Assembly (NCBI GenBank): GCA_017654855.1
Contig: CM030336.1
Location: 1,178,001 to 1,242,000, forward strand
Direction: 5' to 3'
Length of the DNA stretch: 64,000 bases
Source of the DNA: Podospora anserina
Taxonomy: Eukaryota
The notes beneath the pieces were generated by a model that did not search any database, was not told the DNA's origin, and saw only the letters and a program-made list of their open reading frames with translations. This document shows positions 1-30,298 of the stretch, in pieces. The translations under genes and the position numbers were made by a program. Within the stretch, counting starts at the first letter, position 1. Each line of letters starts with the position of its first letter.

Positions 1-2468
1 TTTTTTTATTTTTTAATTATTTCTTTTTACCGATATATACTTTATTTCCTTTAATATAGTATAATCCTTACGCTTTATTATATTTTTTTTTCGGATACTT
101 TATCGACTTAATATAATAATTAATTTTACTATATTAAAAATACTTTTTTAATAAAAGAAGGCTATCGTAATACTACCCTTTTAATCTTCCGAACTAAGTT
201 TTAGTATTAATAATAAGGAAAGTATTAAAAAATAAATTTATTTCTTTATTAAAACTAATATTAAAATTTAAAAAATAAAGTATTTAGTTTTTTAAGTATT
301 AAACGTAGGTCCTTATTATCCTAGATTTACCGTTTCCCGGTATAAAAAAATTATTATAAATATTTATTTTTAAATATTATAATATTATTTTTTTATTTAT
401 TATAATATTAACCGCTATATATTAATTAAATACTTTAGCCGTTTAATTAAAAGTAATAGGAAAGGGTATAATAATTAATTTATTTTTTTTATAGATCTTT
501 TTTCTTATATTATATTTATTTTCGATTATATTATTAATTTAATTACTTTAAATAATAAAATTTATAGATTTTAAACGACGTTCGGATCCTTTTCGGTTAA
601 TAAAAATTATTTTTATTAATTCGGAAAATTTTATTTAAAAGTAGTTAATAACTTTAGTTTTTACTACTTTTTTTTCCCCGGTCGGTACTCGAAAGAATAA
701 TTTAAAATAATTAAAAATAATTTTTTTTAATTTACCTATATTTTTAAAAATAATTTTAATATAAAAGTTATTTAATTCCCTATAAATATTTTTGTTTTAT
801 TAAAGATTATAAATCTTAAAGAAATATTTAAAATAGATAATTAGGATAAGTTAAATATTAATAAATATAAATAGGTTTATATATTTATTAATTTATTTTC
901 CTATATCGAAATTATATTAAAATTTAAACTTATAAACGTAAAAAGTAAATTCTATAATATAATACTTTTTATAAGTATTTTTAAAATACTTTAAATATTT
1001 TATAAAATATTTTTTTTTAAAATTACTTTTAAAATTAATTTTTTTCGGATTAAAGAATTTACGTTAAGGAAAATATATAAGTATTATAGAATAAAGGATT
1101 AAATAATTAAACGTAGGGGACCCTTAAAAATAACGATAGTCGGGGTAAACTCTTATAGGATATAGGTATCCGGATTACTAAAATTAATATACGAATTTAA
1201 AAAAAAAAGCGGGATATTCGGTATACCGAATAGGAAGTATAATATAATTTTAAGTAATAAAATTTAAATAAATATAAAGTTTATTTAATACGTTAAAAGT
1301 ATTAAGCTTTATAATCGGGTTACTTTAATTAGAAAGGGGGCGAAGGATTTTAATATTTTTAAAGTAAGCGCGGTTCGTAATTAGGGAAAGAACGAATAAT
1401 AATAATTCCGGAAACCTAATTGCCGAAATAATTACTTTTATTACGGAACGAGCTATAAAAGTTTAATACCTTTAATTATCGTTAAAAAGGTTAGCCGAAA
1501 CGATAAATAAAATATTATTAAATATATTAATATTTAATAATTATTATTATATTTATATTAATAATATAGTTTTTTTTTTATATATATTATTAGAAATATA
1601 AAAACGGTTATCCCTTATAATTTTAATATATAAATATAAATTATATTTATTTAAATTAAAAAGAAAGTATTTTTATTTTTTTACTTTTAAATTCTTAATA
1701 TTTTAAATTAAATTAATCCGGAAATCTTTATAATTATTTACTATCGCTAAATAATATATTAAAAGGATTCCTTTTAATTAAAAATAAAAAAGGATTTTAA
1801 TAATTAACGCGGAAATAAAATTTATTAACGAACTAATTTTAATTAATATTCTTAATTTATTTCCCGGTTTTATCCGGACTATATATTTAACTCTTTACTT
1901 ACGGATAAAAAGTTTAAAATTTAATCGATAATAAAAAAGCTTTATCCGATTAAATAAAGAAAAATTATTTCTATTAAACCTCGCGGGGTTTAATAAAGTT
2001 ATTAATATTTATTATTATTTATAGTTTCGTATTTCCTTTAGTACCTAAGACTTATAAATCCAGTTTAAACCCTAAGCTTTACTTAACCCGGGCACGACCT
2101 CCATTTAAAATAGTAAGAAAATATATAAAATAACTATAATACTATAAATATACCCTTAATAGGTCTCAGAATAAACATACTTACGTAATAGTAACTCGCT
2201 CGCAAACCGCACTTTACGTAGGATAAAGAAAAGACACTATAGGCTCGCAGGCCATATAATAAGCACCGGATTAGCCTGATTAGAGGGCCAGAATTGCCTG
2301 CACGCGTATAAGGCATAAAATACGAAGAAAGGAATAAAAGTCGATGTCCTGTTTAAAATAGAATGTCCGAAGTAGACCGCTTATATATATAACCCCTGAA
2401 CCCCTGAGTCCTCTGAGAGCCCCGCTTCCTTACTTATACTCTTAGGCCTGTGGCCGCACCCTAAACTA
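1..2468 (-). mobile_element. Partial Gypsy element A' (5' LTR 2106-2468 plus 5' internal region), inserted into the Copia integrase region
   Basis: Reverse-complement copy of 19892-~22360. The 363-bp LTR matches 19892-20254 and 38809-39171 and is followed by a PBS. Confidence 0.9.
2086..2103 (-). promoter_or_regulatory. tRNA primer-binding site of the A family (TGGAGGTCGTGCCCGGGT)
   Basis: Lies 2 nt inside the LTR end. Its complement reads ...CCCGGGCACGACCT-CCA, like a tRNA 3' end with a U discriminator. A RIP-altered copy is at ~20257-20274. Confidence 0.75.
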
Positions 2469-5400: not shown

Positions 5401-6119
5401 CTGTAGTACAGTGCTGTAGGTACGTCGACTGGAAGCGCACAAGTAGGCTAGATTCCGGGCTAGGTGGTTGCCCGGGCTCATAACCTATTAGCTAGTAAGC
5501 CCTAATAGGCCTATAATATAGAACCTATATAGGGTTGCTGTAAAATACAGCAGTGCGTAAGCGGAAGCGGGAGGATACGACGGCAGTGCCGAAGGAAAGT
5601 AAAGCACTATAATACAGTGAGGTATAAAAAATAAGAATTGCCTTTATTACCCTTGGCCTTGGCCTTTGGCCTTAGCCTTAAGCTTTTGCCCTTAGGGAAA
5701 GAAAGAAAGGAACTATTCTATAGGAGAGAGGAGAGGTCTATATATAGGCCTTCGTAGGCCTACTGTGGGTCCTGTAGGCCCTGGAAGCCCCTATACCACT
5801 TTAGGTATTTAGTGGGCTTAGGTGGGTCTAGTGTAGACTTATGGAAATCTATAGAACCTTCAGTAGTAAAGGTGCCCTATAAATTACACTATTGTAGCAA
5901 CTTACTACGTAAGCCTATAGCCACTTTAGAAGGTTCTAGTATCTATTAACTAAGCCTCAGGCCACAGTAGCCCTGTAAGCCTTCAAGGGTCCCTTGTAAA
6001 GAATATTCTAAAGGGATCCAAGCCGGGAAATTCTATTACTGCTTATAGCAGTACTGCCCACTGTAATATCAATCTGTAGGGCAGTAAGTAGGGCACTTAG
6101 TAGTACCCACACATTAACA
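2469..6119 (-). mobile_element. Ty1/Copia retrotransposon E (5' LTR 5486-6119, gag, protease, integrase; cut by A' at 2468)
   Basis: LTR ends TG..TA (RIP-ed CA). PBS GGTTATGAGCCCGGG at 5471-5485. ORF fragments include integrase-like QFHYDGGKE and QNGLTERF (2572-2877), an L(W)HVRLG(H)IG pre-integrase motif near 3105-3135, and a protease-region fragment (3400-3771). Integrase directly follows protease, the Copia order. Confidence 0.88.
3205..3318. repeat. 12-bp tandem repeat (GTGGTAGGCGCT)n encoding an APTT-type linker in Copia pol
   Basis: Repeated ctgtggtaggcg/ctatggtaggca units seen directly. Confidence 0.8.
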
Positions 6120-9100
6120 TAGTTAAATAAAAAAAAGTTTAAAAGGAACGGAATAATTATATTTTATAAAAGGTTTGAAACCCGGTTAAACTAAAGAATA
6201 ACTTTTAAATAATATAGTTCGTATTAAAGTATACGAAATACTATGTCGAATACGCGAACGGTTAAAATATAAATAATAATATATATTTTTAGAAAAAAAT
6301 AATATTAAATTAATATTTAAATTTAAATTACGTATTATATTTATAAAAAAGAATTAAATAATATTATTAAATAAAAGTATTTAAATAAATAATTAAATAA
6401 AAGAACTACTATTAAATATATATATAGGAGAATATTAAATACGTAAAAAACGGAAGATAGGAGGAAGTTAAATAAATATAATTAAAAAACTTTATATTAC
6501 TAAATAATGCGGAGTAAAAGGACGTTTTTAAACGATATAACTATTTAAAAAACGATTCGCGGCTTTTCGCGGGGGCCGGTAACCTTTAATGGATTACGAA
6601 CGGTATTTTCGGAAATATCGGTATAAAGTAAAAGTATAGGATAACGACCCGGTATTTATTAATAAAGTCGTTACTATATAGGGAGGAAATAAAAAAATAA
6701 ATACTTTTAGATTATAGTATATTAAAAGGATATTTAAGTAATAATATTAATAAATAGAAATATAAAAATAAATTTAATTTCGTTATAATTCGTATATTAA
6801 ACTAAAATACTATAAAATAAAAAGAAGGAATGAATCGTTATATAAAGACTATTTCCGACGTAAAAGGTTTATAAAGAAATATTACTTTTAAATATTATAG
6901 CTAAAAGAAAAATAATTTTAATTATATTTAATATTATAAATATAGGACCCTCGAAGGATATAATCCTAAAATAATTATAATATAAAGATTATAATTTAGA
7001 TATCGATTGGAGGGATAGTAATTACTTACGACTAAATTTTTTTTAAAAATATTTAATTAACCATAGAAGATTAGGTATATATATAAAGTAGAGTATGGGA
7101 TAAGTACCCTCTACGGTACTACCGTAAAGAGCCTAAGAAATAATAATATACTTTATTAATATAAACGGTAAAATCGAAGAAATAAAGTTAATAACGTTAA
7201 TAGAGATATCGGAGGTTAATAAATATATTTATTATAATTATATAGAAAAAGATAAGAAAAAAGTAATACCAGTAGAATATCAAGGATATTTAGTTTTTAC
7301 GGTTAAGTATTTAAAGGGATTTTTAAAGCGAGGACCGTAGGATTATAAAATTAAATTAAAAAAAGGAATTAAACTACGGCTATTTAAAGTCTATTATACT
7401 AACGATAAATAAAGTAAAAAGTTATAGAAAGATTTAAACGAGAATTTAAAAAGAGGATATATTAGGGAGTTTATATCGCTAGTAAAATACCCTATATTTT
7501 TCGTACCGAAAAAGGATAGTGGTTTACGACTATATATAAATTACCGTTAATTAAATAACGAGACGGTAAAAAATAATTATTTACTACTATTAATATTTAA
7601 ATTATAAAATTAATTAATAAAGGTATAATATTTTATACGCTTAAATATACTTATCGGATATACCTATATACGGATTAAGGAAAGAAATAAATAAAAAATA
7701 GCGTTTCGTATACCTTATAATTATTTCGAGTATCTTATAATACTATTTAAATTAATTAATACACTTATAACATTTTAATTTTTTATTAATTATATAATTC
7801 GGAAGTATTTCGATAAAATAGTAATATACTATCTCAATAACGTTTTTATTTATTTACGTATTTTAAAAAAGTATAAGCGATATATATAAAAAATATTTAA
7901 TATATTATATAAAGCCGGACTTTTAATTAATAAAGAAAAAAACGAATTTTATATATAAAAAATAATATATTTAAAATATTTAATATTATTAAGTAAAGTT
8001 TATATAGAATTTAGGAAAATTACGGTAATTAAGGATTAGCCTATACCGTAAATATAAATATACGTTAAAGAACTTTTAGGATTTATAAATTTTTATTAAA
8101 TATTTATTTATAGGTACGTAGAAATTATATAATTATTTAATTATTTAATTAAAAAAAACGTAAAGTTCCGGTAGGGGTAAGAAAAGGAGTAGGCCTTTTA
8201 AGAGTTAAAAGAAGTTATTTTAAAGGATCTAGTATTTAAATTGTTAAACCTTAATCGATTATTCGAGGTTGAGGCGGATATATTAGACTATACAATCGAT
8301 AGATAGTTAGGATAGCGAGACGACGACGGAAAGCTATATTTAATAACTTTCTTTTCGAAAAAGCTAGAAGGGGTACGTTAAAATTATTTAATTTATAATA
8401 AGGAATTCTTTATTATTATTAAAATATTCGAAAAATAAAGGCTATACTTTGATAATATTAATTACGAAATATAGGTTTATACGGATTATAAATATCTATA
8501 ATACTTTATTTTTATAAAGGTTTTTAATATACGGTAAATATAATAATTAAAGTTTTTTTCGGAATTTAATTTTTAAATTAATTATAAAAAGGATTCGGAA
8601 AATACTAAAGTAAATGTATTTAGCCGGCAAACTAATTATTATAAAGATATATTTAAAAAGTTATTACTATTATTTAAAGAGACGTTAGAGGGTACTTTTA
8701 AGTATTTATTTTAACCGTAAATAAAGTATTACGTAATATATTATAAATAAATTATTTTTAATAAATATTAAAGAAGGTTAAGTAACGATATTATAAAATA
8801 ATATTAATAAAAAAAATTAAAACTATAAAGTATTTAAAAAAATAATTAAGGAAGGTTATAGTATAAAAATCGAGCGTACGTAAAGTTAAGTAATAAAACG
8901 ATATTAGTAATAGAAATTTATAGATTGAAGTTCGGAGGATATATAAATATTATAAAAACTATAGAAGAAATTAAATAGTATTTTAATTAACTAAGAAATA
9001 AAGACGACGTTAAAGAAATTATTTAGTTATACTATATATGCGAGAAAATAAAGGTTGCGAGGTATAAACCTTACGGATTTTTAAAGCTATTATTAATAGT

Positions 9101-10349
9101 AAAACGATTATAGAGTTTAATTACGATAAACTTTATTATTAAATTACTAAAGTTAAGAAATATAATAACCGGCGTTAAATATAATAATATATTAATAATA
9201 GTCGATAGGCTTACTAAAAAAATATATTTTTTACTATATAAAGAAATTTAATTAGTAAAGTAATTAACGGACGTAATATTACGGTATATTATAATAATAT
9301 ATATATAATTAAAAAAATTTATTACGGATCGCGATATTATATTTATATCGAAATTTTAAAGAGCGTTAATAACGAGGCTCGGGGTAATAAGTAAAGTATT
9401 ATCGGCCTACTACTTTTAAATAAATAGTTAAACGGAACGGCTTAATTAAATTATAGAATAATATTTATTGGATTATATTAATTTTAAGTAAAACGATTAA
9501 ATTAAATTATTATTTATAATATAATTAATATATAATATATTATTAATAAAAACGATTAAAGTTATACCGTTTTCTATAAATTTTAAATATAAAATAGACC
9601 TACGGTAAGGACTTAGCGTTAAAGTACTTAGGGTTAAAGTTAAAATAAATAAATTATATATATTTTATAGTAAATTTAAGTAAAAACTAAAGTTTATAAA
9701 GGAAAGGATCTAAAAATATTATAATACTAAAAGGCTTAAGGGACTTCGCTTTAAAAAGGGAAATATAATATTCCTTTTTATATATAATTTATATATTAAA
9801 AGACTTAGTAAGAAGCTAGACTATAGGAGAGTAGGCCTATTTAAAGTTAAAAGGAGAATCTTAAAAACGGTATTCGAATTAGAGTTACTTAATATAATAT
9901 ATTTAAAGTTATATACGTTTTATATCTTACTTTTAAAACCCGTATTACCGGTAAGTAAAGCTAATATATAGGTAATAACGGAGGATAAAGAAAAAAAGTA
10001 CGATAAAAAGAATATTAAATTTATAATTTTATAAAGATTAATTAAAATATTTAATTAATTAATTAAAATATCCTGTTATAAATAATTTATAGGAATTAAA
10101 AATAAATTTTAATTACTTAAATAAATAAATAAAATTCTATTAATAATATTTAAACCGATTAAAATTTAAATAATAAAAAGATTAGTATTTAAATTTATAA
10201 ATTATATTTATAAATTTAAATATAAAATTTTAATAAGAATCGAACTTATACCTTTAACGTAATAATCGATATACTACGTACTATACTATAAAGTTAAAAA
10301 ATATAAAGAAATCTAAATATAAGTAATATTATATATTTTAATTACTTTA

Positions 10350-10900
10350 AAAAGTAAAAGGCGCGTTATTAATGGTACCCTACGGAGTTAGGAAGGAACG
10401 ACCGGCCGTATTAAAGTCTAAAAGAAGGTCGGAAGGTTAGTCGAAGCTTGAGGAAGGATCTAGGAAGAAGAAGTTAGAAGGAACGGTAGTAGAGGATTCC
10501 GCTGCGGAAAGGTTCCGAAGGAAAACGGAAGGAGTAAACTACTCTTTACGTTTAACTTTCTCTAACTTTTCTATACTATTAAAACTACGGGAAACGGTAC
10601 GAGCTATCTTATTAAGTTAAAATTTCTTTTACTTACGTAAACGGATAATCTTAGCTATAGAAGCAACTAACTCGGCCTCGGCCCTCTCTATATTAAAATT
10701 AAAACAGTTATAATAAGCTACGATTTTGCGGAGGCTGGAGGCGGATAGACCGCCGGCCTCGTAAAAAGGCTAGTTAAAAGAGATGTAGGAAATATAGTAA
10801 GAAAAATTAGGAAAAAAAAATGTATAAAGAAATAAATAACGTTTGTAATAAATATAAAAAATAATTATAATAGTAAAATTACGTAAAATAATATTAAATA
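10350..10900 (-). pseudogene. Antisense accessory ORF of element D: Zn2Cys6-like motif plus coiled coil (RIP-ed)
   Basis: In-frame TAT/TAC codons between 10856 and 10761 are spaced x2-x6-x9-x2-x7. They are followed by ...ERAEAELVAS(M)AKIIRLRK(Q)KK... Confidence 0.65.
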
Positions 10901-11042
10901 AAGTATTATATTAAATAGTTTTAAAATAAATAGTTTTCGAACGTTTAAAAACCTAATTAAAAATATAATAAAGGATAAAAAGGAGGAAAAAAAACTTACC
11001 GTAATTAACGACGAAAAAGGAGATTAGGCCGTAAGGACTTTA

Positions 11043-14000
11043 TGTAACGAACCCCTGTACAGAACCTCTAAAAGGGATACCGGTTAAAGGCTACTTCTGA
11101 TAATTAGTTCGGTGCGGCTAAACAGCATACAATAAGATGTCTCAATGTAAACACAAGATACCGTAAATATAAGCTGTGAATTGCATGCTGCGGAACTATT
11201 TATCTATACCAGCCAGTTCCTCCGTATATATAAACCTCGTGCTAAGCCCTAATTATAATAATTATTCCGCTCGTTCCTAATAATTATAATAATTACTATA
11301 ATCCTTTATAGCTCCCTATTAATTATATTACCGCGATTACTATATTTTCCCAGTCTACTATTTATAATTACGTATCTTTATCTTAATTAGTCCTATTAGC
11401 GATTAACTATACGTTTTATACCCCGCATACGGTCCGTCTTACTTATTTAGCTTAATTATAATATAATACCCTTCCTCTTAGATTAAAATCCCGTCGACTT
11501 AAAGCCTAAAATAATCGCTTATCGCTTACTTTTCTTTATTTATAAATCCTTCTCTTCTCTCTATTATTATAATATTTAACTCTTATAAAGTTTTTAAGTC
11601 CTTATAACCCTTTACTCCGAACGTTAGTCCGTAGTACCGTCGTCGTTTAGCCTTAACCGCCTTTATTAACCTTAAAAGTTTTATTACTATACCCTATTCT
11701 TTTTATATTACCCGTAACTTAACCTATCGCCTTTATAAATATTTTTCCCGTTACGGTAAATATATACGTCGAGGCCGTTTATACGACGCGTCAGGCACTC
11801 TTACTATTATAAGTCGGTTAATCCGTTCCTTTTTTAATACTCCGTTTAACTTTATTTAATCGAGTATTTAATTACCGAATATCGCTATTTATCTTTAAAG
11901 AAATTAGTTACTAAAAAACGATTTTTAAACGTTTATCGTAAAGCCGAAGAGGCTACGCGTAAAGCGTAAAAAGCCGTTATATATTTATCCTACCTTCGTT
12001 AATAGAAATAATATTTATTAAAGCAGGGTATTACTATTATTAACGAAATAGTACCTACGCTCGACCCTTCTACTACTGCTGCTCCTAGTACCGATTTCTC
12101 TTTCCTAGATCCTTCCTTAAGCTTCGACTAGCTACCTAACCTCTCCCTAGACTCCGGCGTAATTAATCCTTCTTTCCTAACCTCTTAAAATACTACCGTT
12201 AATACGCCTTTTATTTCCTAAAATAATTAAAGTATATAATACTATTTATATTTAATTCCCTTTATACTTTTTAACTTTATAGTATAGTTTATAGTATATC
12301 GATTATTATATTAAAGATGTAGGTTCGATTCTTATTAAAGTTCTTTAGTCTTTATATTATTATTATTTAACAGTAATCTAAAGACTTATTTTTTTTATTT
12401 AGGTTTTAGTCGGTCTAAATATCGTTAATAAAATTCTTTTTATTTATTTAAGTAATTAAAGTATATTTATAGTTCTTACGAGTTATTTATAGTCGGATAT
12501 CTTAATTAATTAATTAAATATTTTAATTAATTTTTATTAAACCGTAAATTTAATATCTTTTCTATATTATATTTTTTTTTATTCTCCGTTATTACCTATA
12601 TATTAATTTTATTTATTAGTAATACGGGTTTTAAAAGTAAGATATAAAAGGTATATAATTATAAATATATTATATTAAATAACTTTAATTTGAATACTAT
12701 TTTTAAAATCTTCCTTTTAATTTTAAACGGGTTTACTCTTCTATAGTCTAGCTTTTTACTAAGTCTTTTAATATATAAATTATATATAGAAAGGAATATT
12801 ATATTTCCCCCCTTAAAGTAAGGTCCCTCGAGCTTTTTAATATTATAATATTTCCGTATCCTTTCCTTTATAAACTCTAATTTTTATTTAAATTTATTAT
12901 AAAATATATATAACTTATTTACTTTAACTTTAGCTTTAAGTATCTCTATATTTAATCCTTACTATAAATTTATTATATATTTAAAGTTTACGAAAAATAA
13001 TATAGCTTTAATTATTTTAATTAATAATATATTATATACTAATTATATTATAAATAATAATTTAACCTAATTATTTTATTCGAAATTAATATAATTTTAT
13101 AAATATTATTTTATAATTTAATCAAGCCGTTTTGTTTAACCGTTTATTTAAAAGTAATAAGCCGAAGATACTTTATTTATTACCCCGAGTCTCGTTATTA
13201 ATACTTTTTAAAATTTTAATATAAATTTAGTATTGTAATCCGTAATAAATTTTTTTAATTATATATATATTAATATAATATATTATAATACTATATCCGT
13301 TAATTACTTTACCGACTAGATCTCTTTATATAGTAAAAAGTATATTTATTTAGTAAGCCTATCGATTACCGTTAATATATTATCGTACTTAACGCCGGTT
13401 ACCGTATCCTTAGACTTTAATAATTTAATAATAAAGTTTATTATAATTAAACTCTATAATTATTCTATTATTAATAATAATTCTAAAAGTCTATAAGGCT
13501 TATACCTCGTAACCCTTATTTTTTTATACGTATAGTATAACTAAATAACTTCCTTAACGTCGTTTTTAATCCTTAATTAATTAAAGTACTACTTAATTTT
13601 TTTTATAGTCTTTATAATACTTATATATCCTCCGAACTTCGATCCGTAAATCTCTATTACTAATATCGCCCTATCACCTAGTATTACGTACGCTCGATTC
13701 TTATACTATAGTCTTCCCTAATTATCCTTTTAAATACCTTATAGCTTTAACTTTTCCTACTAATATTACTCTATAATATCGCTACCTAACTTCCTTTAAT
13801 ATTTACTAAAAGTAGCTCTTTTACGATATACTACGTAATACTCTATCTATAGCTATAGTAAATACTTAAGAGTACCGTTTAGCGCTTCCTTAAATAATAA
13901 TAATAACTCTCTAAGTATATCTTTATAGTAATCGGCCCGCCGGCTAAATACGTTTACCCTAGCGTTTTCCAAACCTTTTTTATAATTAATCTAAAAATTA

Positions 14001-17000
14001 AATTCCGAAAAAAACTTTAATTATCGTATTTACCGTACATTAAAGACTTTCGTAATAATAAAGTACCGTAAATTTTTATAATTTATATAAACCTATATTT
14101 TATATTTAATACTATTAAAGTATAACCTTTATTCCTTAAACGCTTCGATAATAATAAATAGTTTTTTATTATAAATTAAATAGTTTTAATATACCCCTTT
14201 AAACTTTTTTAAAAAAAAGGTTATTAAATATAATTTACTATTGTCGTTTCGCTATCCTAATTATTTACCGATTATATAGTCTAATATATTTGCCTCGACT
14301 TTAAATAATTAATTAAAGTTTAGTAATTTAAATACTAAATCCTTTAAAATAGCTTCCTTTAGCTCCTAAAAGGCCTACTCCTTTTCCTACCCCTACCGGA
14401 ATTCCACGTCCTTTTTAATTAAATAGTTAAATAGTTACGTAATACTTATATACTTTCGAATAAATATCCAATAAAAATTTATAAACCTTAAAAATTCTTT
14501 AACGTATATTTATAATTATAATATAAATTAATCTTTAATTACCATAATTTTTTTAAATTCTATACGAACCTTACTTAACAATATTAAATATCCTAAATAT
14601 ACTATCTTTTATATATAGAACTCGCTTTTCTTTTTATTAATTAAAAGTCCGGCTCCGTATAGCGCGTTAAATATCTTTTATACGTATCGTTTATATTCCT
14701 TTAAAATATATAAATAAATAAAAACGTTATCGAGATAATATATTATTATTTTATCGAAATACTTTTAAATTATATAATTAACGAAAGATTAAAACGTTAC
14801 GGGTATATTAATTAGTTTAAATAGTATTACGAGATACTTAAAATAATTATAAAATATACGAAATACTATTTTTTATTTATCTCTTTCTTTAATCCGTATA
14901 TAGGTATACCCGATAGGTATATTTAAATATATAAAGTATTACGCCCTTACTAATTAATTCCGTAACTTAGATATTAACGGTAGCGGGTAATTATTTTTTA
15001 CCGTTTTATTATTTAACTAACGGTAATTTATATATAGTTATAAACTACTATCCTTTTTCGGTACGAAAAATACGAGGTATCCTACTAATAATATAAACTC
15101 CTTAATATATTTTCTTTTTAGATTTTTATTTAAATACTTTTATAATTCCTTACTTTATTTATTATTAATATAATAAACCTTAAATAGCTATAACTTAATT
15201 CCTTCTTTTAACTTAATTTTATAGTTCTACGGTCCTTATTTTAAAAATCCCTTTAAATATTTAACCGTAAAGGCTAAATATCCTTAATATTTTACCGGAA
15301 CTACCTTTTTCTTATTTTTTTCTATATAATTATAGTAAATATATTTATTAACCTCCGATATTTCTACTAACGTTATTAACCTTACTTCTTCGATTTTACT
15401 ACCTATATCGATAGAGTATACTATTACTTTTTAGGCTCCTTACGGTAGTACCGTAGAGGGTGCTTATCCTCTACTTTACTTTATACGTACGTTTAATTTC
15501 CTATTATTAATTAAATATTTTTAAGGTTCTTTTAGTTATAAATAACTACTATCCCTCTAATCGATATTTAAATTATAATCTTTATATTATAATTACTTTA
15601 GGATTATATCCTTCGAGGGTTTTATATCTATAATATTAAATATAATTAAAATTATTTTTCTTTCGATTATAATATTTAAAAGTAATATTTTTTATAAACC
15701 TTTTACGTCGGAAATAGTCCTTATATAATAATCTATTCCTTTTTTTTTTATAGTATTTTAATTTAATATACGAACTATAGCGAAATTAGATTCGTTTTTA
15801 TATTTCCGTTTATTAATATTACTACCTAGATATCCTTTTAATATATTATAATCTAGAGGCGTTTATCTTTTTTACTTTCTCCCTATATAGTAGTAACTTC
15901 GTTAACGAGCACCGGGTCGTTATCCTATACCTTTACTTTATACTAATACTTCCGAAAATACTATTCGTAATCTATTAAAGGTTACCGGCCCCCGCGAAAG
16001 GCCGCGAGTCGTTTCCTAAACGATTATATTATTTAAAAGCGTCCTTTTATTTTAGGTTATCTAATAATATAAAATCTTTTAACTATACTTACCTAATTTC
16101 TTTCTATTTTCCGTCTTTTATATATTTAATATTCTTTTATATATATATCTAATAACGGTTTTTCTATTTAATCGTTTATTTAAATACCTTTACTTAATAA
16201 TATTATTTAACTTTCTTTTATTAATATAGCGTGTAATTTAGGCTTAAATATTAACCTAATACTACTTCTTTTTAAAAATATATATTATTATTTATATCCT
16301 AACCGTTTACGTATTTAACGTAGTATCTTATATATTTTAATATAAACTATATTACTTAAAGATTATTCTTTAATTTAACCGGATCTTAAACTTTTTATAA
16401 AATATAGTCGTTCCGTTCTTCCTAAACTTTCTTTTATTTAACTATAATTCTTTTAATTAACTATAGTTTACCTTACTTACCTACCTTACGTACCGGCTAA
16501 TAGCCGTATAGCGACTTACTTTAATAATACTCTATATATCCGTATATAATATATTAAAACTAAAGTACTTTCTAATATTCCGGATACCTAGGATAAAATT
16601 ATACCGTATTTCCTTTATAGAATATATACTATATAAGTATTGGTATATCTTTTAATAACTTCGCGATCCCGATATTAATAACTTTTTTACCCTTGTAATA
16701 TTTTTCCTAACTTTTATATATAAGCTTTATAAATAATAATATTTTTTATAAAATAATAATCTTATATTTACCGTACTACCTTTTTAATATCGTTTACCTA
16801 GTAGGTCTTTTTTACTATATAATATTATTATTTTTAGTAACCTCCGTAATAATTTTTACGGTAATTTATATTAATCGATTCTAAAATATTAATATTTAAA
16901 GGTTTCTTTTTTTATATTTCGCCTTTAGCCTTTCTATTATTTCCCGTAACTCTTAAAACTCTACTTCCTTTTATTTAATATACTAATTAAAATCTTCCTT

Positions 17001-18550
17001 AAAACTTACTATTTTACTTTACTAATACCCGATAATTATAACTTTTATAACCCTCGGTCCCCTTAATATAATAATTATTATAGTAACCTCTTTCTTTTAC
17101 TTAAATTATTTAAATATCCGGTAATTTTTTTTAAAGTATTTTACTTTACTATAATTAAAATATTTATAGTTATTTTTACTTTAGCTCTAGCTTTACGGCC
17201 TTTATTATTATATAGTATTAATATTTATAGGTCCTAAATATATAGTACTGGAGTAATTAGTAGTCGGGTATTACTATTTACGTTTATCGTTAAAGCGGTA
17301 ATTTCTATAATAATCTTAACTATTATAATTTTTTTTTTATATAATATTAAAATTATTTATTATCGATCCGTATAATTATAGTAATATACTTATTAATAAT
17401 ATTAAGCCTTTCCTCCTTATATAATTCGTTCTTTATTTCTTCTTTAAAACTATTATAAAAGGTCTATATTAACCCTTTATTATTAATTTCGTTATATAAA
17501 TTATCGATCTTAAATTAAATAATATATTTCGTTACTAAATATATTTATTATAAATTCGCGAGCCTCTTTTATACGTACCTCCCTTTATTATATTCTTTAA
17601 ATATTTCCCTAAACTTTACTTTAAAGATTTAGTAACTCCGAAAATATTAAATAATAATTTCTTTTTAGTCCTCCGCTACTACCTTATAATAATTATTAAA
17701 AATAGGTTTAAACTAAATAAAAGTTTTATCTTTAAGCCGGGTAACTATATATATTACTTTCGATTTTTCTGTATCGAACTATTCTGGATAATAATAAAAA
17801 TAAATTTTAAATTAAATTAAAAAACTTTTAAGTTTTACCTTTCCGTCTCTATAGCGCTCTAGTACTGGGAACTTAATTATATACGTAGGCCTAACCGCCG
17901 AAAAAGTAAGAACTTACTCTTTAGTTTATTAAGCTTCGGCCTTAAACTCTTTAACGCGATCGATAAGCTATTAAGCCGTAGTAACCCTGGACCTAACGTC
18001 TACGGTAGAAGGTCCCTCGATAGTTAAGCTAAGCGGGACGCCTCCTATTTAAATATTTTCGGGTTAAACTATAATAATAAAAAAACACCTTTAACTTATT
18101 TATAATAGAGTTAAAGTAAGTATATAACGTATAACGAACCCCTATATAGAACCTCTAAAAGGAATACCGGTTAAAAGCTACTTTTAATAATTAATTTGAT
18201 ACGGCTAAATAGCGCACAACAAAATATCTTAATATAAATATAAAATACTGTAAATATAAATTATAAATTATATACTACGGAACTATCTATCTATATTAGC
18301 TAGTTCCTCCGTATATATAGACCTCGTGCTAAGCCCTAATTATAATAATTATTCCGCTCGTTCCCAATAATTACAATAATCGCTATAATCCTCCGTAGCT
18401 CCCTATTAGTTATATTACCGCGATCACTATATCTTCCCAGTTTACTATCCATAATCGCGTATTCTTATCCTAATTAGTCCTGTTAGCGATTGGCTGTGCG
18501 TCTTGTGCCCCGCACACGGTCCGTCCTGCCTGTTTGGCTTAACTGTAACA
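11043..18550 (-). mobile_element. Full-length chromovirus-type Gypsy element C (7508 bp)
   Basis: 421-bp LTRs at 11043-11463 and 18130-18550. 5-bp TSD CTTTA (11038-11042 and 18551-18555). RIP-ed gag, PR, RT (YLD(D) ~14730), RH, IN and chromodomain on the minus strand. Confidence 0.93.
11510..12220 (+). pseudogene. Antisense accessory ORF of element C: Zn2Cys6-like motif plus coiled coil (RIP-ed; ends approximate)
   Basis: TAT/TAC codons at 11695, 11704, 11725, 11752, 11761 and 11782 give C-x2-C-x6-C-x8-C-x2-C-x6-C after reversing RIP. A KAEEATRKA..AV..LS.LR helix follows. Confidence 0.7.
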
Positions 18551-21500
18551 CTTTAGTTTAAAGAAAGAGTATTATATTACAATTTAGAAAAAGCAGGGTC
18601 GTTTGGGTTAATAAAAATAAGCGACGGATAAGTAGGGCCTATAAAGCAGGGAATAATATGGACTAAGGAATCTAGAAATTAAAAGCTAGATTTATAAGAT
18701 TTAGGAAAAAATAGATAGATTTAAATACAAAGGTATTTAAAGGTTAAGGTCTATATATATAGAGAAACTGGTTAATATAAATAAACAGTTCCGTAATATA
18801 TAATTTATAACTTATATTTATAATATCTTATATTTATATTAAAATATCTTATTATACGCTATTTAGCCGTACCGAACTAATTATTAGAAGTAGCCTTTAA
18901 CCAATATCCCTTTCAGAGGTTCTGTACAGGGGTTCGTTATATCTCCCTCTCTTCTTCGTAAGTCTTCTTTTTTATCCTTTAATAGCTTAGCTAACTGTTA
19001 CGGACCTAATATAAGTGGGGAGCGCGGAGCGCGACCGTCTAACTACTAAAACGGAAAAGTAAGGAAGTCGGATTATCACTAGTGCTAAGGGTAATAATCA
19101 CGATTATTACTAGCCTTCGATAAACGATAAATAATAATCGATATTATTACTAATAATAATAGTAATAAACCGGTCTATATATACGGAGGAACTAACTAAT
19201 ATCGATAGATAGTTCTGTAGTATATAATTTATAATTATATTTATAATATTTTATATTTATATTAAAATATTTTATTATATACTATTTAATTATACCGAAC
19301 TAATTATTAGAAATTACTTTTAACCTATATCCCTTTTAAAGATTTTATATAGGGGTTCGTTATACGTTATATATTTATTTTAACTCTATTACGGATAGAT
19401 TAAAAGTATTAAAATAACGTTATAGCCGGAAACGTTAATACTTAGGGGGGCTCGACCTAACCTACTATCGACTAGCTTCTCGCTTGTATTTAAAAATTTA
19501 AAAATAAATTATATTTTTTTTATAATACCTTTATATAAAAAAATATTATACTTTACTAGGAAATTAGTACTTTACGTAGGGGGGGAAACTATATCAAGCT
19601 CGAAGTACCCGATCGCTATAGAAGTATAAAAGGAAAGCTAAAAAGATTCCTAATTTAATTTAAAACTTACTTTAAATACTATCCTTTTTATTTCTTAAAC
19701 GAGGAATCTAAAATAATATACATTACGTCCAGGCTTAAGGATAAAATATTTATTTAGTTCGAGCCGATTTTAAGAAACTATTTTAATAATAAATATTACG
19801 AGAGGAAGGATATTACGAAAAAAATTTTTAAATTATATAAGGGCTTTAAAGAGAAAATTAAAGAGGTATTTAAAGAGTATAACGAAGGTAGTGGTTTGGG
19901 GTGCGGCCACAGGCCTAAGAGTATAAGTAAGGAAGCGGGGCTCTTAGAGGACTTAGGGGTTCAGGGGTTATGTATATAAGCGGTCTGCTTCGGATATTCT
20001 ATTTTAGACAGGACATCGACTTTTATTCTTTTCTTCGTATTTTGTGCCTTGCACGCGTGCAGGCAATTCTAGCCCTCTAATCAGGCCAATCCGGTACTTA
20101 TTATATAGCCTGCGAGCCTATAATATCTTTTCTTTATCCTACGTAAAGTGTGGCCTGCAAGCGAGTCACTATTACGTAAGTATATTTATTTTAAAACCTA
20201 TTAAAAGTATATTTATAGTATTATAGTTATTTTATATATTTTCTTACTATTTTAAATAGAGGTCGTACCCGGGTTAAGTAAAGTTTAGGGTCTAAACTAG
20301 ACTTATAAGCCCTAGGTATTGGAGGAAGTACGAAGTTACGAACGATAATAAGTATCGATAACTTTATTAAACTCCGCGAGGTTTAACGGAAATAATTCTT
20401 TTCCGTTTAATCGGATAAAATTTTTTTATTATCGATTAAACTTTAAATTTTTTACCCGCGAATAAAAAATTAAATATATAGTCCGGATAGGACCGGGAAG
20501 TAAATTAAAAATATTAATTAAAACTAGCTCGTTAATAAACTTTATTTCTATATTAATTATTAAAATCCTTTTCTATCTTTAATTAAAAAGAATCTTTTTA
20601 ATATATTATTTAATAATAATAAATAATTATAGGGATTTCCAGGTTAATTTAATTTAAAATATTAGGAATTTAAAAATAAAAAAACGAAAATACTTTTCTT
20701 TTAATTTAAATAAATATAATTTATACTTATATATTAAAGTTATAAAGGATAATTATTTTTATATTTTTAATAATATATATAAAAAAAAAATTATATTATT
20801 AATATAAATATAATAATAATTATTAAATATTAATATATTTAATAATATTTTACTTATCGTTTCGGCTAACCTTTCCGGTAATAATTAAGGATATTAAACT
20901 CTTATAGTTCGTTCCGTAATAAAAATAATTATTCCGGCGGCTAAGTCCCCGGAATTATTATTATTTATCCTCTCCCCGGCTATAAACCGCGTTTATTTTA
21001 AAAATATTAAAACCCCTCGCCCCCTTTTTAATTAAGGTAGCCCGACTATAAAACTTAACGCTCTTAACGTACTAGGTAAACCTCGTACTTATTTAAATCC
21101 TATTATTTAAAATTATATTACGTTTTTTATTCGGTATATTAAATATTCCGCTTTTCTTTTTAAATTCGTATATTAATTTTAATAACCCGGATACCTATAT
21201 TTTATAGGAGTTTACCCCGACTATCATTACTTTTAAGGGTCCCTTACGTTTAATTATTTAACCCCCTATCCTATAGTACTTATATATTTTCTTTAACGTA
21301 AATTCTTTAATCCGAAAAAAATTAATTTTAAAAGTAATTTTAAAGGAAAGTACTTTACAGAATATTTAAAGCGTTTCGAGAATATTTATAAAAAATATTA
21401 TATTATAAAATTTATTTTTTATATTCGTAAATTTAAATCTTAATATAATTTTAATATAAAAAAATAAATTAATAAATATATAGACCTACCTATATTTACC

Positions 21501-28800: not shown

Positions 28801-30298
28801 TTAAAGAAAAAATATCGGAAACGGTTTTTAGGTTTAAATTACTAAATACTATACGGTTATAATTAAATACCTTTTATATTTTATTTTTAAAACCGGTATT
28901 ATAGGATATTAATCCCGATATATAAATAAAAACCGAGGATAAAAAAAAAGAGTATGATATAAAAGAAATATTAAATTTATATATTAATAAAGGATAATTA
29001 AAGTATTTAATTAATTAATTAAATTATTTAATTATAAATAATTTTTAAAAATTAATTACGAACTTTAATTACTTTAAAAAACTAAAGGAATTTTACCGAA
29101 GGAATCTTAATCGACCTTGGGCGTAAGATTAAATAATTAATTAAAACCGGCGGGGAGCTCGAAGATAGCGTTAGGGTTAGAGACGTTAGTAGCCTCCTAA
29201 TTTATAATACCGAAAGTACTTAACGACTAGGCTTAGCCGATTAGGGATTACTCGCTTAATAGATTTATAGGCTCGGGCAAGGGGGGCGTTAAAGTATTTA
29301 TTTTATTTAACGACTTTATTCTTTAATAAAAAAGTTCGGTACTTTAATTACGTATCGATTTACGCTATTTACGGAAATAAGTTAAGGAGTTTAATATTTT
29401 CGCTAATAAATTTTTTTTTGCGGTTATTTTTTTATTAATTTTTTTTTATTTTAATAAGTTTTTAATTATTACAATCGTTAAAAAAGAAGGACTATTACGT
29501 AGAATATAGGTACCTATAAAAATTAATTACGTTTAGTTTATTATACGATTTATTTACTTAAACGTAGTTCGAGTAGCGGTTCGACCTTTCCTTTATAACG
29601 TAGCGCCCTTAAGGCTTCGTACGTTAATAGCGGGAGTAAAGTATAACTTCGATACCGTTTTAATTAATTAAGGCGGAGAGAACTATTTGTTTACGAGTAG
29701 TATCGCGGTAATGTTTCTTTACGCGACCCGTTATCGTTAAGCGTACCGAAGTAAGCTTATAGAAAGAAGAAAAGGAGGGGGGTTACTTACGCGTAAGAGA
29801 GAATAGTAGCGCTAAGGGTATAAAGGATAATAACGTTAAGTTTTTCGGAACGAAAAACGACGAGGGGGAGTATTGTATTACAAACCAACTATATAGTAAG
29901 GCCAGGTAGAGACTGTAGCTGGCCATGCCTGCTAATTAGAGGAAAAAGATACGGCGGTAGGGCTGCAGGGTAGGATAAGGCTCACTGCTTGGCAAAGGTA
30001 AGCCGGATCACCACGCTCACCAGGTAAACGCGGTAAGTTCTAAGGGATCACTACGGGTCGCTGGTGAGCGAGAGTGATCCAGGTACGAAGGTACTTAGGG
30101 ATTTATAGTCTATATATACGGAGGAACTAGATAGCTTATAGATAGTTCCGCAGTATGTAATCACAGCTTGTATTCACGGTATCTTGTGTTTATATTGAGA
30201 CATCTTGTTATGCACTGTTTAGCTGCACCGAACCAATTGTCAGAAGAAGCCTTCAACCGAATATCCCTTTCAGAGGTTCTGTACAGGGGTTCGTCACA
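22895..30298 (+). mobile_element. Full-length chromovirus-type Gypsy element B (7404 bp), nested in element A upstream of its protease
   Basis: 423-bp LTRs at 22895-23317 and 29876-30298. 5-bp TSD GTAGT. Zn knuckle ~24220, protease (D)SG(A) ~25677, RT ~26770, chromodomain EYD(V)..IL...YL..(W) ~28950-29075, polypurine tract GAGGGGGAG. Confidence 0.94.
29170..29760 (-). pseudogene. Antisense accessory ORF of element B: Zn2Cys6-like motif plus coiled coil (RIP-ed; ends approximate)
   Basis: De-RIP reading (M)(P)CSRC(Q)RxKP(Q)GRCV(M)KExSNRCSNCV(Q)VNKSC(D) at 29644-29540. Antisense GTAAGT donor at 29790-29785. Confidence 0.7.

What the first reader, a model, noticed from the sequence alone, without database searches (positions are those of the whole stretch)
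11689..12220. Hidden antisense Zn2Cys6-like gene inside chromovirus C
Seen: between the chromodomain and the 3' LTR, on the strand opposite gag-pol, six in-frame TAT/TAC codons (11695, 11704, 11725, 11752, 11761, 11782) are spaced x2-x6-x8-x2-x6. Established: RIP turns TGT/TGC (Cys) into TAT/TAC, and C-x2-C-x6-C-x5-12-C-x2-C-x6-8-C is the GAL4-type binuclear cluster pattern. The de-RIP reading is about MPCSFC.TRNLTCRL....SRCG(E)C(V)RRGR.CDASG, followed by a coiled-coil-like helix, as in GAL4 dimerisation. Inference: the retrotransposon carries its own DNA-binding regulator as a third ORF. I do not know of a description of this for these elements.
Basis: partly seen in the sequence, partly recalled or inferred. 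Interest (0 to 1): 0.82.

Follow-up and report, generated by a model that had tools for sequence, protein, structure and literature searches.

The report
Retrotransposon's hidden antisense zinc-cluster gene
The odd run of tyrosine codons is the mutated wreck of a real, conserved gene that a family of fungal retrotransposons carries backwards between pol and the 3' LTR, encoding a small GAL4-like zinc-cluster protein with a coiled coil.

Summary
The six TAT/TAC codons sit at the stated places on the + strand, antisense to a RIP-degraded Ty3/gypsy element (11043-18548, minus strand), between its integrase/chromodomain end and its 3' LTR.

Searches from the degraded 74-codon frame recovered a family of 46 proteins plus 4 metagenome loci.
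- 39 of the 46 span the motif with spacing 2-6-8-2-6. At the six positions they carry only Cys or Tyr, apart from one Arg. 14 have all six Cys.
- In L001 and L003 the gene lies antisense to gag-RT-integrase.
- Differences between these two loci fall on third codon positions: 5/6/25 at positions 1/2/3.
- A 51-53 nt intron splits the gene.
- All three elements in the window carry relics of it.

The domain is Zn2Cys6-like but divergent. Pfam Zn_clus aligns in register yet stays under its cutoff. Foldseek's top ranks are Zn2Cys6 DNA-binding domains, but none is significant.

A role as a DNA-binding regulator is inferred, not shown. The window copy is dead. An antisense gene (brtn) is already published for Botrytis Boty elements. 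Whether it is the same family could not be tested.

The parts
11043..11466 (-). 3' LTR of element C (Ty3/gypsy, minus strand)
   Evidence: BLAST pair 11045-11461 / 18132-18548, 83% identity. The inner edge was read from the sequence next to the polypurine tract.
11038..11042 (.). Target-site duplication CTTTA, left copy. Element C is inserted in the 3' LTR of copy 1.
   Evidence: Read from the sequence. The same 5 bases lie at 18549-18553.
11469..11479 (-). Polypurine tract of element C (AAGAGGAAGGG on the minus strand)
   Evidence: Read from the sequence. The same layout is seen in element B and in L001 and L003.
11635..11808 (+). Exon 1 relic of the antisense gene: helix segment plus zinc-cluster domain. 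No start codon survives.
   Evidence: A family HMM built without the window row hits 11638-11823 with i-E 1.2e-11. phmmer of this frame found P0001 and P0002. The only in-frame ATA codons upstream are at 11542, 11569 and 11572.
11695..11784 (+). Six former Cys codons, now TAT/TAC, with spacing 2-6-8-2-6
   Evidence: for the codons. Relatives carry TGT/TGC or Cys at all six positions.
11809..11859 (+). Intron relic (51 nt). The 5' site is ATAAGT (from GTAAGT), there is a branch-like GTTTAAC, and the 3' end is AA (from AG).
   Evidence: Alignment A3 with L001-L004. 11813 G>A is seen in other genomic copies.
11860..12221 (+). Exon 2 relic: coiled coil, acidic stretch and C-terminal D-W motif (now D-stop at 12126-12131). 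It reads in the frame of 11862. The likely original stop is TAA at 12219-12221.
   Evidence: Frame translation. Stops are at 11967, 12000, 12003, 12009, 12129 and 12186. There is a weak HMM hit at 11859-12065 with i-E 1.9. The C-terminal part is shared with copy 1.
12659..12883 (-). Integrase C-terminal SH3 of element C
   Evidence: Pfam SH3_Tf2-1, 24 bits, E 4.2e-5, under the 30-bit cutoff. It is 82% identical over the whole pol to copy 1.
18130..18548 (-). 5' LTR of element C
18549..18553 (.). Target-site duplication CTTTA, right copy
10400..10856 (-). Relic of the same antisense gene in copy 1 (gag-pol on the + strand, 6119-10140). The Tyr pattern starts at 10856. There is no intron, because SSLRKIVA reads straight through. 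The coiled coil is at 10691-10542.
   Evidence: Regex match at 10856 on the minus strand. HMM hit 10691-10542 with i-E 9.5e-6. Translation.
29293..29731 (-). Relic of the same antisense gene in element B (gag-pol on the + strand, LTRs 22899-23313 and 29880-30294)
   Evidence: HMM hits 29731-29528 with i-E 1.4e-6 and 29433-29293 with i-E 0.18. Translation. LTRs.

Best explanation
Positions 11635-12221 (+) are the RIP-destroyed relic of an accessory gene that belongs to this lineage of fungal Ty3/gypsy chromoviruses.

Shown here:
- The gene lies between the end of pol and the 3' LTR, on the strand opposite gag-pol.
- In intact relatives the start codon sits about 25 nt inside the polypurine tract.
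- In L001 the 3' end overlaps the end of pol tail to tail.
- In several lineages the gene is split by a 51-53 nt phase-1 intron.
- The protein is about 160-200 residues. It has a basic N-terminal stretch, a short helix, a six-cysteine cluster with GAL4-type spacing (C-x2-C-x6-C-x8-C-x2-C-x6-C), a long coiled coil, an acidic stretch and a conserved D-W-N-A-x-F end.
- It evolves under purifying selection.

Inferred:
- It is transcribed inward from an antisense promoter in the 3' LTR and spliced from that antisense RNA only. That would explain how an intron survives retrotransposition.
- It binds two zinc ions, dimerises through the coiled coil, enters the nucleus and binds DNA as a sequence-specific factor acting on the element's own LTR or on host promoters. 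I put this functional step at roughly 0.45.

In the window, RIP has turned all six TGY codons into TAY and Gln/Trp codons into stops, so this copy encodes nothing.
For: Homology:
- phmmer of the 74-codon frame against 1.84 billion representatives gave 2 hits (E 3e-6 and 1.3e-4), and both keep the six columns.
- Profile searches raised this to 46 proteins at E<=0.01. Named sources include Thermothelomyces, Chaetomidium, Corynascus, Thyridium, Fusarium, Verticillium, Colletotrichum, Metarhizium and Xylariaceae.
- 39 of the 46 span the motif. Every one of the six positions is only C or Y apart from one R, and 14 have all six Cys.
- Codons in the loci: positions 1-3 are TGT/TGC in L001-L003 and TAT/TAC in L004 and the window. 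Positions 5 and 6 are mixed.

Context:
- On the minus strand of L001 are Retrotrans_gag, zf-CCHC, RVT_1 (87.6 bits) and SH3_Tf2-1 (51.9 bits). The gene is on the plus strand.
- L003 has the same layout.
- A family HMM built without the window row hits the pol-to-3'LTR spacer of all three window elements, each time antisense.

Coding constraint:
- L001 vs L003 differences by codon position are 5/6/25 in the Cys part (chi-square p 2.5e-5) and 43/29/81 overall (p 6.8e-7).

Intron:
- L003 has GTTCGT...GCTAAT...TTAG, 51 nt.
- L001 has the intron at 255-307, with a TGCTGAC branch and a CAG 3' site.
- Removing it restores the reading VSS-L/F-x-RIV found uninterrupted in P0006 and P0007.
- Several ORF-caller products run into it (P0009, P0015, P0017, P0019, P0021, P0023).

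Fold:
- Zn_clus is the only Pfam family that recurs, matching 12 of 31 members at E<=1. It aligns in register at profile positions 2-31 in P0006, P0015 and P0027.
- 19 of the first 21 Foldseek rows listed (ranks 1-22) are solved Zn2Cys6 DNA-binding domains: PUT3, HAP1, GAL4, LEU3, PPR1, Pho7 and AlcR.
- 5 of 10 structure neighbours in the ESM Atlas are Zn(2)-C6 clusters.
- UniRef names P0027 a Zn(2)-C6 fungal-type domain protein.

Dimer:
- Two copies of P0031 residues 1-135 scored ipSAE 0.59 against a best control of 0.01.
- That mark was reached by 21 of 30 solved homodimers and 0 of 23 solved single chains.
- The runs agree in at least 65% of contacts, and the partner pLDDT is 74 or more.
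Against: - No member reaches Pfam's Zn_clus cutoff. The best is 17.4 bits against 21. In L001, L002 and P0011 the alignment is out of register, with the first half of the motif laid on the second half of the profile.
- Precomputed Pfam is blank for all 46 proteins.
- A family profile against all PDB sequences found no Zn2Cys6 chain at E<=10, only coiled coils.
- No Foldseek hit has E<=0.001; the best is 0.94. Its score uses residue letters, so it is not independent of the Cys pattern.
- The AF2 model is only moderate: mean pLDDT 73.5, pTM 0.39.
- The predicted dimer pairs residues with i+j of about 143-146. That is antiparallel, unlike the parallel coiled coils recalled for GAL4-type factors. 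It was made with zinc riding along, outside the tool's calibration, and without my alignment.
- No experiment or transcript supports expression, zinc binding, DNA binding or any effect on the element.
- The window copy has no start codon, a 4-nt gap before the intron and six stops in exon 2.
Confidence: 0.8

Rival explanations
1. Chance. RIP makes TAT/TAC common, and six of nine Tyr in a short open frame of non-coding spacer happen to fall in GAL4 spacing.
For: - Tyr frequency is 0.087 in six-frame translations of the AT-rich part.
- The stop-free pattern turns up in 4% of shuffles of this window alone.
- Two other matches with stops (26117 minus, 36621 plus) have no support from the family HMM.
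- RIP at CpA/TpG is saturating here: CA 3, TG 0 and TA 94 in 577 bases. Tyr could therefore equally descend from His or Tyr.
Against: - 46 homologous proteins and 4 loci keep exactly these six columns as C or Y. The three other Tyr of the window frame are not conserved.
- The HMM hit has E 1.2e-11.
- Differences between lineages are biased to third codon positions.
Confidence: 0.01
2. Passenger. The gene is a fragment or copy of a host Zn2Cys6 transcription-factor gene that was transduced once into a retrotransposon. It has been carried along without serving the element.
For: - Gene transduction into LTR retrotransposons is known (passages read in the review PMC7264820).
- Fungal genomes hold very many Zn2Cys6 genes (recalled).
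- The gene has an intron, as a host gene would.
- Copy 1 and element C share pol at 82% identity, but they differ in the 5' half of this gene and in the LTR U3. This shows the tail is exchanged as a module.
Against: - It is a complete small gene with its own start and stop, not a fragment.
- It is found in three element lineages in this window that are only 70-82% alike, in L001 and L003, and in at least nine named genera.
- Purifying selection acts between lineages.
- Position and orientation are the same in 5 of 5 contexts read.
- No long host-type factor turned up among the hits. However, only lengths of 37-170 residues were searched.
Confidence: 0.07
3. The gene is a real element gene, but its product is not a transcription regulator. 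It might tether the pre-integration complex to chromatin, help nuclear import, or counteract host silencing. Alternatively the antisense RNA itself (dsRNA or siRNA control) might be the main product.
For: - The review of antisense ORFs between pol and the 3' LTR lists these options and states that no function is known for any of them (PMC7264820, passages read).
- The basic N-terminus looks like a nuclear localisation signal.
- The predicted antiparallel dimer would place the two zinc clusters far apart. That fits bridging better than a classic paired half-site reader.
Against: - Zn2Cys6 domains are, as far as I recall, nearly always sequence-specific DNA binders.
- Constraint at the protein level argues against an RNA-only role.
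- An acidic stretch plus a conserved aromatic C-terminal motif resembles an activation region. This is inference only.
Confidence: 0.12

Closest known systems
[quoted passage not shown] 2011, Virology 417:248). The paper is not held. I saw only its title and the way PMC8365987, PMC7264820, PMC4227169 and PMC5987419 cite it.
   Same: The host is a fungal chromovirus. The gene is an extra one between pol and the 3' LTR, antisense to gag-pol.
   Different: I could not obtain its sequence, so homology is untested. None of the citing passages read mentions a zinc cluster, a coiled coil or an intron. The 2020 review says no aORF of this kind has a clear similarity to other proteins. The family found here comes from named Sordariomycetes, and no Botrytis or Sclerotinia protein was among the 46 hits. 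That search was limited to 8000 word-sharing candidates. Figure S1 of PMC8365987, a supplement I could not see, maps brtn and may bear on this.
Antisense additional ORFs between pol and the 3' LTR of plant LTR retrotransposons: maize Grande gene23, rice RIRE2, Silene Retand, Phaseolus PvRetro13 (review PMC7264820, passages read; PMC11963269, search listing only).
   Same: Same position and orientation. They are present in most copies of a family. One product (Grande) is nuclear. A regulatory role is suspected.
   Different: The hosts are plants and the elements are mostly non-chromovirus lineages. No recognisable DNA-binding domain is reported. No sequence relation is known or was tested.
Fungal Zn(2)-Cys(6) binuclear-cluster transcription factors: GAL4, PPR1, PUT3, HAP1, LEU3, Pho7, AlcR (Pfam PF00172).
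   Same: Six Cys in canonical spacing. There is a basic residue three positions after Cys2 and a Gly four positions after Cys5. A linker and a coiled coil follow the cluster. These structures fill the top Foldseek ranks.
   Different: The family is under Pfam's cutoff. The proteins are very small (about 160-200 residues) and lack the fungal_trans middle homology region. They are encoded by a mobile element. The coiled coil is much longer and is predicted to be antiparallel.
HBZ of HTLV-1 (recalled). The antisense promoter in the HTLV 3' LTR is mentioned in PMC7264820 (passage read).
   Same: A retroelement encodes a dimerising, coiled-coil transcription-factor-like protein on its antisense strand. 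It is expressed from the 3' LTR side as a spliced mRNA.
   Different: HBZ is a bZIP protein of a human retrovirus. There is no homology, and this is an analogy of layout only. Expression from the LTR is shown for HBZ but only inferred here.

Membership tests
Zn(2)-Cys(6) binuclear cluster (Pfam PF00172 Zn_clus) | Six Cys spaced C-x2-C-x6-C-x5-12-C-x2-C-x6-8-C (pattern recalled) | tested here: met
   14 of 39 motif-spanning family proteins have all six Cys at 2-6-8-2-6. The other 25 have C or Y at each position, with one R. The window itself has Tyr at all six.
Zn(2)-Cys(6) binuclear cluster (Pfam PF00172 Zn_clus) | Score at or above Pfam's gathering cutoff (21 bits) | tested here: not met
   The best score is 17.4 bits, E 0.0048 (P0006). 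12 of 31 members match at E<=1 and none reaches the cutoff. Precomputed Pfam is blank for 46 of 46.
Zn(2)-Cys(6) binuclear cluster (Pfam PF00172 Zn_clus) | Fold: two short helices, each starting at a C-x2-C, wrapped around two metal ions | tested here: inconclusive
Zn(2)-Cys(6) binuclear cluster (Pfam PF00172 Zn_clus) | Binds two zinc ions and recognises DNA (typically CGG triplets; recalled) | not testable with these tools
   Needs metal analysis and a DNA-binding assay.
Zn(2)-Cys(6) binuclear cluster (Pfam PF00172 Zn_clus) | Dimerisation through a coiled coil C-terminal to the cluster | tested here: inconclusive
   The homodimer model scores 0.59 against a best control of 0.01, with contacts over residues 41-101. 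The pairing is antiparallel, and the job lay outside the tool's calibration.
Antisense additional ORF between pol and 3' LTR (aORF-3R: brtn, Grande gene23, RIRE2, Retand) | Lies between the end of pol and the 3' LTR | tested here: met
   Window elements C, copy 1 and B. L001 and L003.
Antisense additional ORF between pol and 3' LTR (aORF-3R: brtn, Grande gene23, RIRE2, Retand) | Antisense to gag-pol | tested here: met
   5 of 5 contexts read.
Antisense additional ORF between pol and 3' LTR (aORF-3R: brtn, Grande gene23, RIRE2, Retand) | Present in most copies and conserved like the element's other genes | tested here: met
   3 of 3 elements in the window carry it. About 5-7 further genomic copies of the C-type tail appear in runs X1 and X4. 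Codon-position bias is 5/6/25.
Antisense additional ORF between pol and 3' LTR (aORF-3R: brtn, Grande gene23, RIRE2, Retand) | Sequence homology to brtn itself | not testable with these tools
   The paper and its sequence are not held. No Botrytis hit appeared among the 46.
Antisense additional ORF between pol and 3' LTR (aORF-3R: brtn, Grande gene23, RIRE2, Retand) | Antisense transcript exists | not tested
   No usable RNA data (see Tried and rejected).
Ty3/gypsy chromovirus (the carrier element) | Order gag, CCHC knuckle, RT, integrase, with a C-terminal chromodomain, flanked by LTRs and a 5-bp duplication | tested here: met
   L001 Pfam hits for gag, zf-CCHC, RVT_1 and SH3_Tf2-1. LTRs and CTTTA duplication in the window. 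The chromodomain was recognised only by eye (YLVKW...W motif, recalled) and was not scored by Pfam.

The most novel reading that the evidence does not exclude
A widespread lineage of ascomycete chromoviruses encodes its own sequence-specific Zn2Cys6 transcription factor. It is made from an intron-containing antisense mRNA that starts in the 3' LTR, a fungal counterpart of HTLV-1 HBZ. The factor would act on the element's LTR and possibly on host promoters. This would give the first biochemical identity to any antisense ORF lying between pol and the 3' LTR of an LTR retrotransposon. If brtn of Boty is a member, it would explain that gene too.
Probability: 0.4. Interest if true: 0.8.

Novelty: new variant of a known kind. 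Interest (0 to 1): 0.66.

Why it matters
Antisense extra ORFs between pol and the 3' LTR have been known for decades in plant elements and since 2011 in Botrytis Boty. The 2020 review read here states that none has a recognisable similarity or a known function.

Here one such gene gets a concrete, testable identity: a small dimerising zinc-cluster protein, conserved under selection across many Sordariomycete genera, with an intron that only an antisense transcript can remove.

That makes direct experiments possible on how a retrotransposon might control its own or host transcription.

It also flags a class of multi-copy 'hypothetical proteins' in fungal annotations as transposon genes.

Finally, it shows that RIP-scrambled DNA can still be read back to a protein family through Cys-to-Tyr signatures.

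Tried and rejected
1. Whole genome. None is held. A de-RIP consensus from the organism's own copies was therefore not possible.

2. Other copies in the window. RIP-tolerant Smith-Waterman of 11462-12066 against the window gave a best score of 58, against shuffle maxima of 47-63. The C-type 5' half is therefore single-copy here. Copy 1 and element B were recognised only later, through the protein HMM.

3. Sequencing runs.
- Contigs of X1, X4 and X11 laid at 80% likeness gave 38, 34 and 27 pieces.
- Differences were almost all transitions (X1: 242 of 248 places).
- Of 265 difference rows only 40 were shown, and none fell on the six middle bases.
- RIP at TpG is saturating, so these copies cannot separate Cys from Tyr ancestry.
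- No RNA holder was listed. The guessed-RNA run X21 laid 0 contigs. This says nothing about expression.

4. Searches with the raw window frame. The word-index search found nothing. Pfam on the raw frame and on P0001-P0005 showed no Zn_clus.

5. A wrong turn of mine. Position 4 was Tyr in all 10 sequences seen up, while the other Cys codons partly survived. From this I concluded that position 4 was an ancestral Tyr and that the cluster had only five Cys. One search overturned that: 21 of 39 proteins have Cys there, including close relatives with IERSSRCGEC. The TGY in the context CGN-TGY-GG may be a RIP hot spot.

6. A second wrong turn. I first rejected the intron because no GT..AG pair kept the frame. 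I had misplaced the 5' site by two bases. With a phase-1 split, both L001 (53 nt) and L003 (51 nt) splice in frame.

7. Minus-strand ORF in L001. The 177-codon open frame at 129-662 is R/S-rich. In the Cys part its second codon positions carry the variation, so it does not explain the constraint.

8. Other collections. The viral-contig scan found no relative. Earlier findings of this scan held nothing by place, sequence or words.

9. Literature. Searches found no paper in the held library that links a zinc cluster to an LTR-retrotransposon ORF. One search found the brtn citations.

10. Structure second looks. See the Against line.
Full report
**What is in the window**

Positions 5950-45000 are an AT-rich, RIP-degraded block with GC about 0.2. 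It is made of nested Ty3/gypsy elements.
- Element C lies on the minus strand from 11043 to 18548. Its LTRs are 11045-11461 and 18132-18548, 83% identical.
- A 5-bp duplication CTTTA flanks element C at 11038-11042 and 18549-18553. So C inserted into the 3' LTR of an older element, copy 1.
- Copy 1 has gag-pol on the plus strand. Its stretch 6119-10472 is 82% identical to C.
- A third element, B, spans 22899-30294 on the plus strand. Its LTRs are 88% alike and it is about 70% identical to C.
- The integrase SH3 of C is at 12659-12883 on the minus strand.

**The observation**

The six codons are TAT, TAT, TAT, TAC, TAT, TAC at 11695, 11704, 11725, 11752, 11761 and 11782. They sit in a 74-codon stop-to-stop frame at 11635-11859.

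By itself this is thin.
- The frame holds nine Tyr.
- Tyr makes up 8.7% of six-frame codons in this DNA.
- A stop-free match to the pattern appeared in 4% of 200 shuffles of the 39-kb block.
- RIP at CpA/TpG is saturating in this stretch: 3 CA, 0 TG and 94 TA in 577 bases. Tyr codons could therefore descend from Cys, His or Tyr.
- Other copies in the same organism, seen as contigs of runs X1 and X4, differ almost only by transitions. They did not show G at the six middle bases among the 40 of 265 rows shown.

The organism's own copies could not decide the matter.

**Relatives decide it**

- A full phmmer search with the degraded frame found two short Tyr-rich proteins (E 3e-6 and 1.3e-4). They keep all six columns, and one has Cys at the third.
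- Profile searches widened this to 46 proteins at E<=0.01 among 8000 scored candidates of 37-170 residues.
- Named sources are Thermothelomyces thermophilus (six proteins), Chaetomidium, Corynascus, Thyridium, Fusarium, Verticillium, Colletotrichum, Metarhizium and a Xylariaceae species. Many further hits come from unnamed metagenome or run assemblies.
- 39 of the 46 span the whole motif with spacing 2-6-8-2-6.
- Cys occurs at positions 1 to 6 in 26, 26, 30, 21, 27 and 21 of them. Everything else is Tyr, apart from one Arg.
- 14 proteins have all six Cys.

A column that alternates only between Cys and Tyr is what TGY-to-TAY mutation by RIP produces. The three non-pattern Tyr of the window frame are not conserved.

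Four partly mutated metagenome loci give the codons directly. Positions 1-3 read TGT or TGC in L001-L003, and TAT or TAC in L004 and the window.

**It is a gene of the element, on the antisense strand**

- In L001 the minus strand carries Retrotrans_gag, a CCHC knuckle, RVT_1 (87.6 bits) and the integrase SH3 (51.9 bits). The zinc-cluster ORF is on the plus strand.
- L003 has the same layout, with LTR copies at 58-514 and 7444-7883.
- In L001 the ATG at 44 follows the complement of the polypurine tract (9-20) by about 25 nt. L003 is similar. Any promoter must therefore lie in the 3' LTR. This is an inference.
- In L001 the gene runs to about 690 while pol ends near 566-568 on the other strand. 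The two overlap tail to tail by roughly 125 nt.

A family HMM built without the window row was searched against the six-frame translation of the window, with stops read as X. It hit these places, each antisense to its gag-pol:

| Window place | i-E | Element |
|---|---|---|
| 11638-11823 (+) | 1.2e-11 | C |
| 29731-29528 (-) | 1.4e-6 | B, pol-to-LTR spacer |
| 10691-10542 (-) | 9.5e-6 | copy 1, pol-to-LTR spacer |

The Tyr pattern of copy 1, at 10856 on the minus strand, was one of the four 'with stops' pattern matches.

**It has been under selection as a protein**

Between L001 and L003, differences in the cluster part fall 5, 6 and 25 on codon positions 1, 2 and 3, out of about 55 sites each (p 2.5e-5). 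Over the whole alignment they fall 43, 29 and 81 (p 6.8e-7).

The long open minus-strand frame of L001 (129-662) has its second positions on these variable sites in the cluster part. It does not account for the pattern.

**An intron**

After ...G-V-P-V-S-S plus one base, L003 has GTTCGT...GCTAAT...TTAG, 51 nt. L001 has 53 nt at 255-307, with branch TGCTGAC and a CAG 3' site. Its 5' site reads ATACAC, and in L002 it reads ATACGT, one G-to-A step from GTACGT.

Removing it gives VSS-(L/F)-x-RIVAESKRL. This is the uninterrupted reading of P0006, P0007 and others.

Several ORF-caller products instead run on into hydrophobic nonsense at that point (P0009, P0015, P0017, P0019, P0021, P0023).

Copy 1 in the window lacks the intron. 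Element C has its relic at 11809-11859 (ATAAGT ... TTTAA), after which the coiled coil continues in the frame of 11862.

An intron on the antisense strand is not exposed to splicing in the element's genomic RNA. It can therefore persist through retrotransposition. This is inference, but it is hard to explain unless the antisense strand is transcribed and spliced.

**What the protein is**

Its architecture is:
- a basic N-terminus;
- a helix;
- M-P-C-x2-C-x6-C-x8-C-x2-C-V-R-R-G-R-x-C;
- a short linker;
- about 60 residues of heptad-like helix;
- an acidic L-D-E-L-E-E stretch;
- a conserved D-W-N-A-x-F end.

Evidence that the cluster is Zn2Cys6-like:
- Zn_clus is the only Pfam family that recurs (12 of 31 members at E<=1). 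It aligns in register in P0006, P0015 and P0027.
- The best score is 17.4 bits against a cutoff of 21.
- An AF2 model of P0006 (mean pLDDT 73.5) puts short helices right after Cys1 and Cys4.
- Foldseek's first ranks in 350,542 PDB chains are almost all Zn2Cys6 DNA-binding domains: PUT3, HAP1, GAL4, LEU3, PPR1, Pho7 and AlcR. All have E of 0.94 or worse.
- A sequence profile against the PDB found only coiled coils.
- ESM Atlas structure neighbours include Zn(2)-C6 clusters in 5 of 10 rows, all under that tool's bar.
- UniRef already labels one member (Verticillium, P0027) as a Zn(2)-C6 domain protein.

I therefore call the domain Zn2Cys6-like and divergent, not a proven member.

A two-copy model of P0031 residues 1-135 scored 0.59 against a best control of 0.01.
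- The mark was reached by 21 of 30 solved homodimers and 0 of 23 solved single chains.
- The runs agree in at least 65% of contacts, and the partner pLDDT is at least 74.
- Contacts run along residues 41-101, but in antiparallel register.
- The job carried zinc and so lay outside the calibration.

**State of the window copy**

It is dead.
- All six Cys codons are Tyr.
- No start codon survives.
- There is a 4-nt gap before the intron.
- Both splice sites are mutated.
- Exon 2 has stops at 11967, 12000, 12003, 12009, 12129 (the former Trp of the D-W motif) and 12186.

**What is known already**

Antisense ORFs between pol and the 3' LTR are described for maize Grande, rice RIRE2, Silene Retand and Phaseolus PvRetro13. 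In fungi they are described for Boty of Botrytis cinerea and Sclerotinia sclerotiorum, where the gene is brtn (Zhao et al. 2011).

The review PMC7264820 (passages read) says their function is unknown and that no clear similarity to other proteins has been described.

I could not read the brtn paper or get its sequence. The passages read in PMC8365987, PMC4227169 and PMC5987419 give no domain for it.

Searches combining zinc-cluster terms with retrotransposon, antisense, LTR or gag-pol found no relevant paper in the held library.

The layout is therefore a known kind. The identity of the product, its spread across Sordariomycetes and its intron appear to be new, unless brtn turns out to be the same family and was so described.

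**Verdict**

Its central inference is supported: six Cys codons were turned into Tyr by RIP, and the gene is an antisense third gene of the retrotransposon with a GAL4-like cluster and a coiled coil.

The function as a DNA-binding regulator remains a reasoned guess.

Noticed in passing
window 11038-11042 and 18549-18553; 10497-11042 plus 18549-18940: Element C is a clean nested insertion (5-bp duplication CTTTA) into the U3 part of copy 1's 3' LTR. The rest of copy 1's LTR continues after 18548 and ends near 18940.
   Followed up: yes
window 10497-11020 versus 11480-12066: Copy 1 and element C share gag-pol at 82% identity and also the 3' part of the antisense gene. They differ completely in its 5' half and in the LTR U3. 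Only C has the intron relic. The tail looks like an exchangeable module, which suggests recombination between subfamilies.
   Followed up: partly
position 4 of the motif (window 11752; L001 194-196): The fourth Cys codon was Tyr in all 10 RIP-affected sequences seen first, even where the other five Cys codons survived (L002). Yet it is Cys in 21 of 39 family proteins. The context CGN-TGY-GG may be a RIP hot spot. It misled me for a while.
   Followed up: partly
window 11462-12230 in run X11 (organism B): A second species label holds one full-length copy of this stretch with 13 differences. The seven listed in the single-copy part (11462-12085) are all T>C or A>G relative to the window. The window's copy therefore carries extra RIP-type changes.
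   Followed up: no
L001 129-662 minus strand: A 177-codon open, Arg/Ser-rich frame runs opposite the antisense gene. It is probably just the stop-poor mirror frame of a GC-rich coding region. L002 shows the same.
   Followed up: partly
L001 566-690: The end of pol (minus strand) and the end of the antisense gene (plus strand) overlap tail to tail by about 125 nt. Both C-termini are therefore encoded by the same DNA.
   Followed up: partly
window 1-2466 versus 22359-19894; 2106-2466 versus 39171-38811: There is a large inverted duplication (2466 bp, 86.7% identity) and further repeats of another element family in the AT-rich block.
   Followed up: no
window 42488-42884 and 44237-44619; 18747-18941, 19172-19362: Several LTR copies or fragments share only the last ~190 bp (U5 side) with the LTRs of C and B. 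The U3 parts differ between subfamilies.
   Followed up: no
window about 45000: There is a sharp switch from GC about 0.2-0.3 to GC 0.5-0.6. This is an isochore-like border between the RIP-degraded repeat block and what looks like ordinary gene space. The genes there were not examined.
   Followed up: no
window 26117 (minus) and 36621 (plus): Two further matches to the Tyr spacing pattern, both with internal stops, have no support from the family HMM. They are taken as chance.
   Followed up: yes
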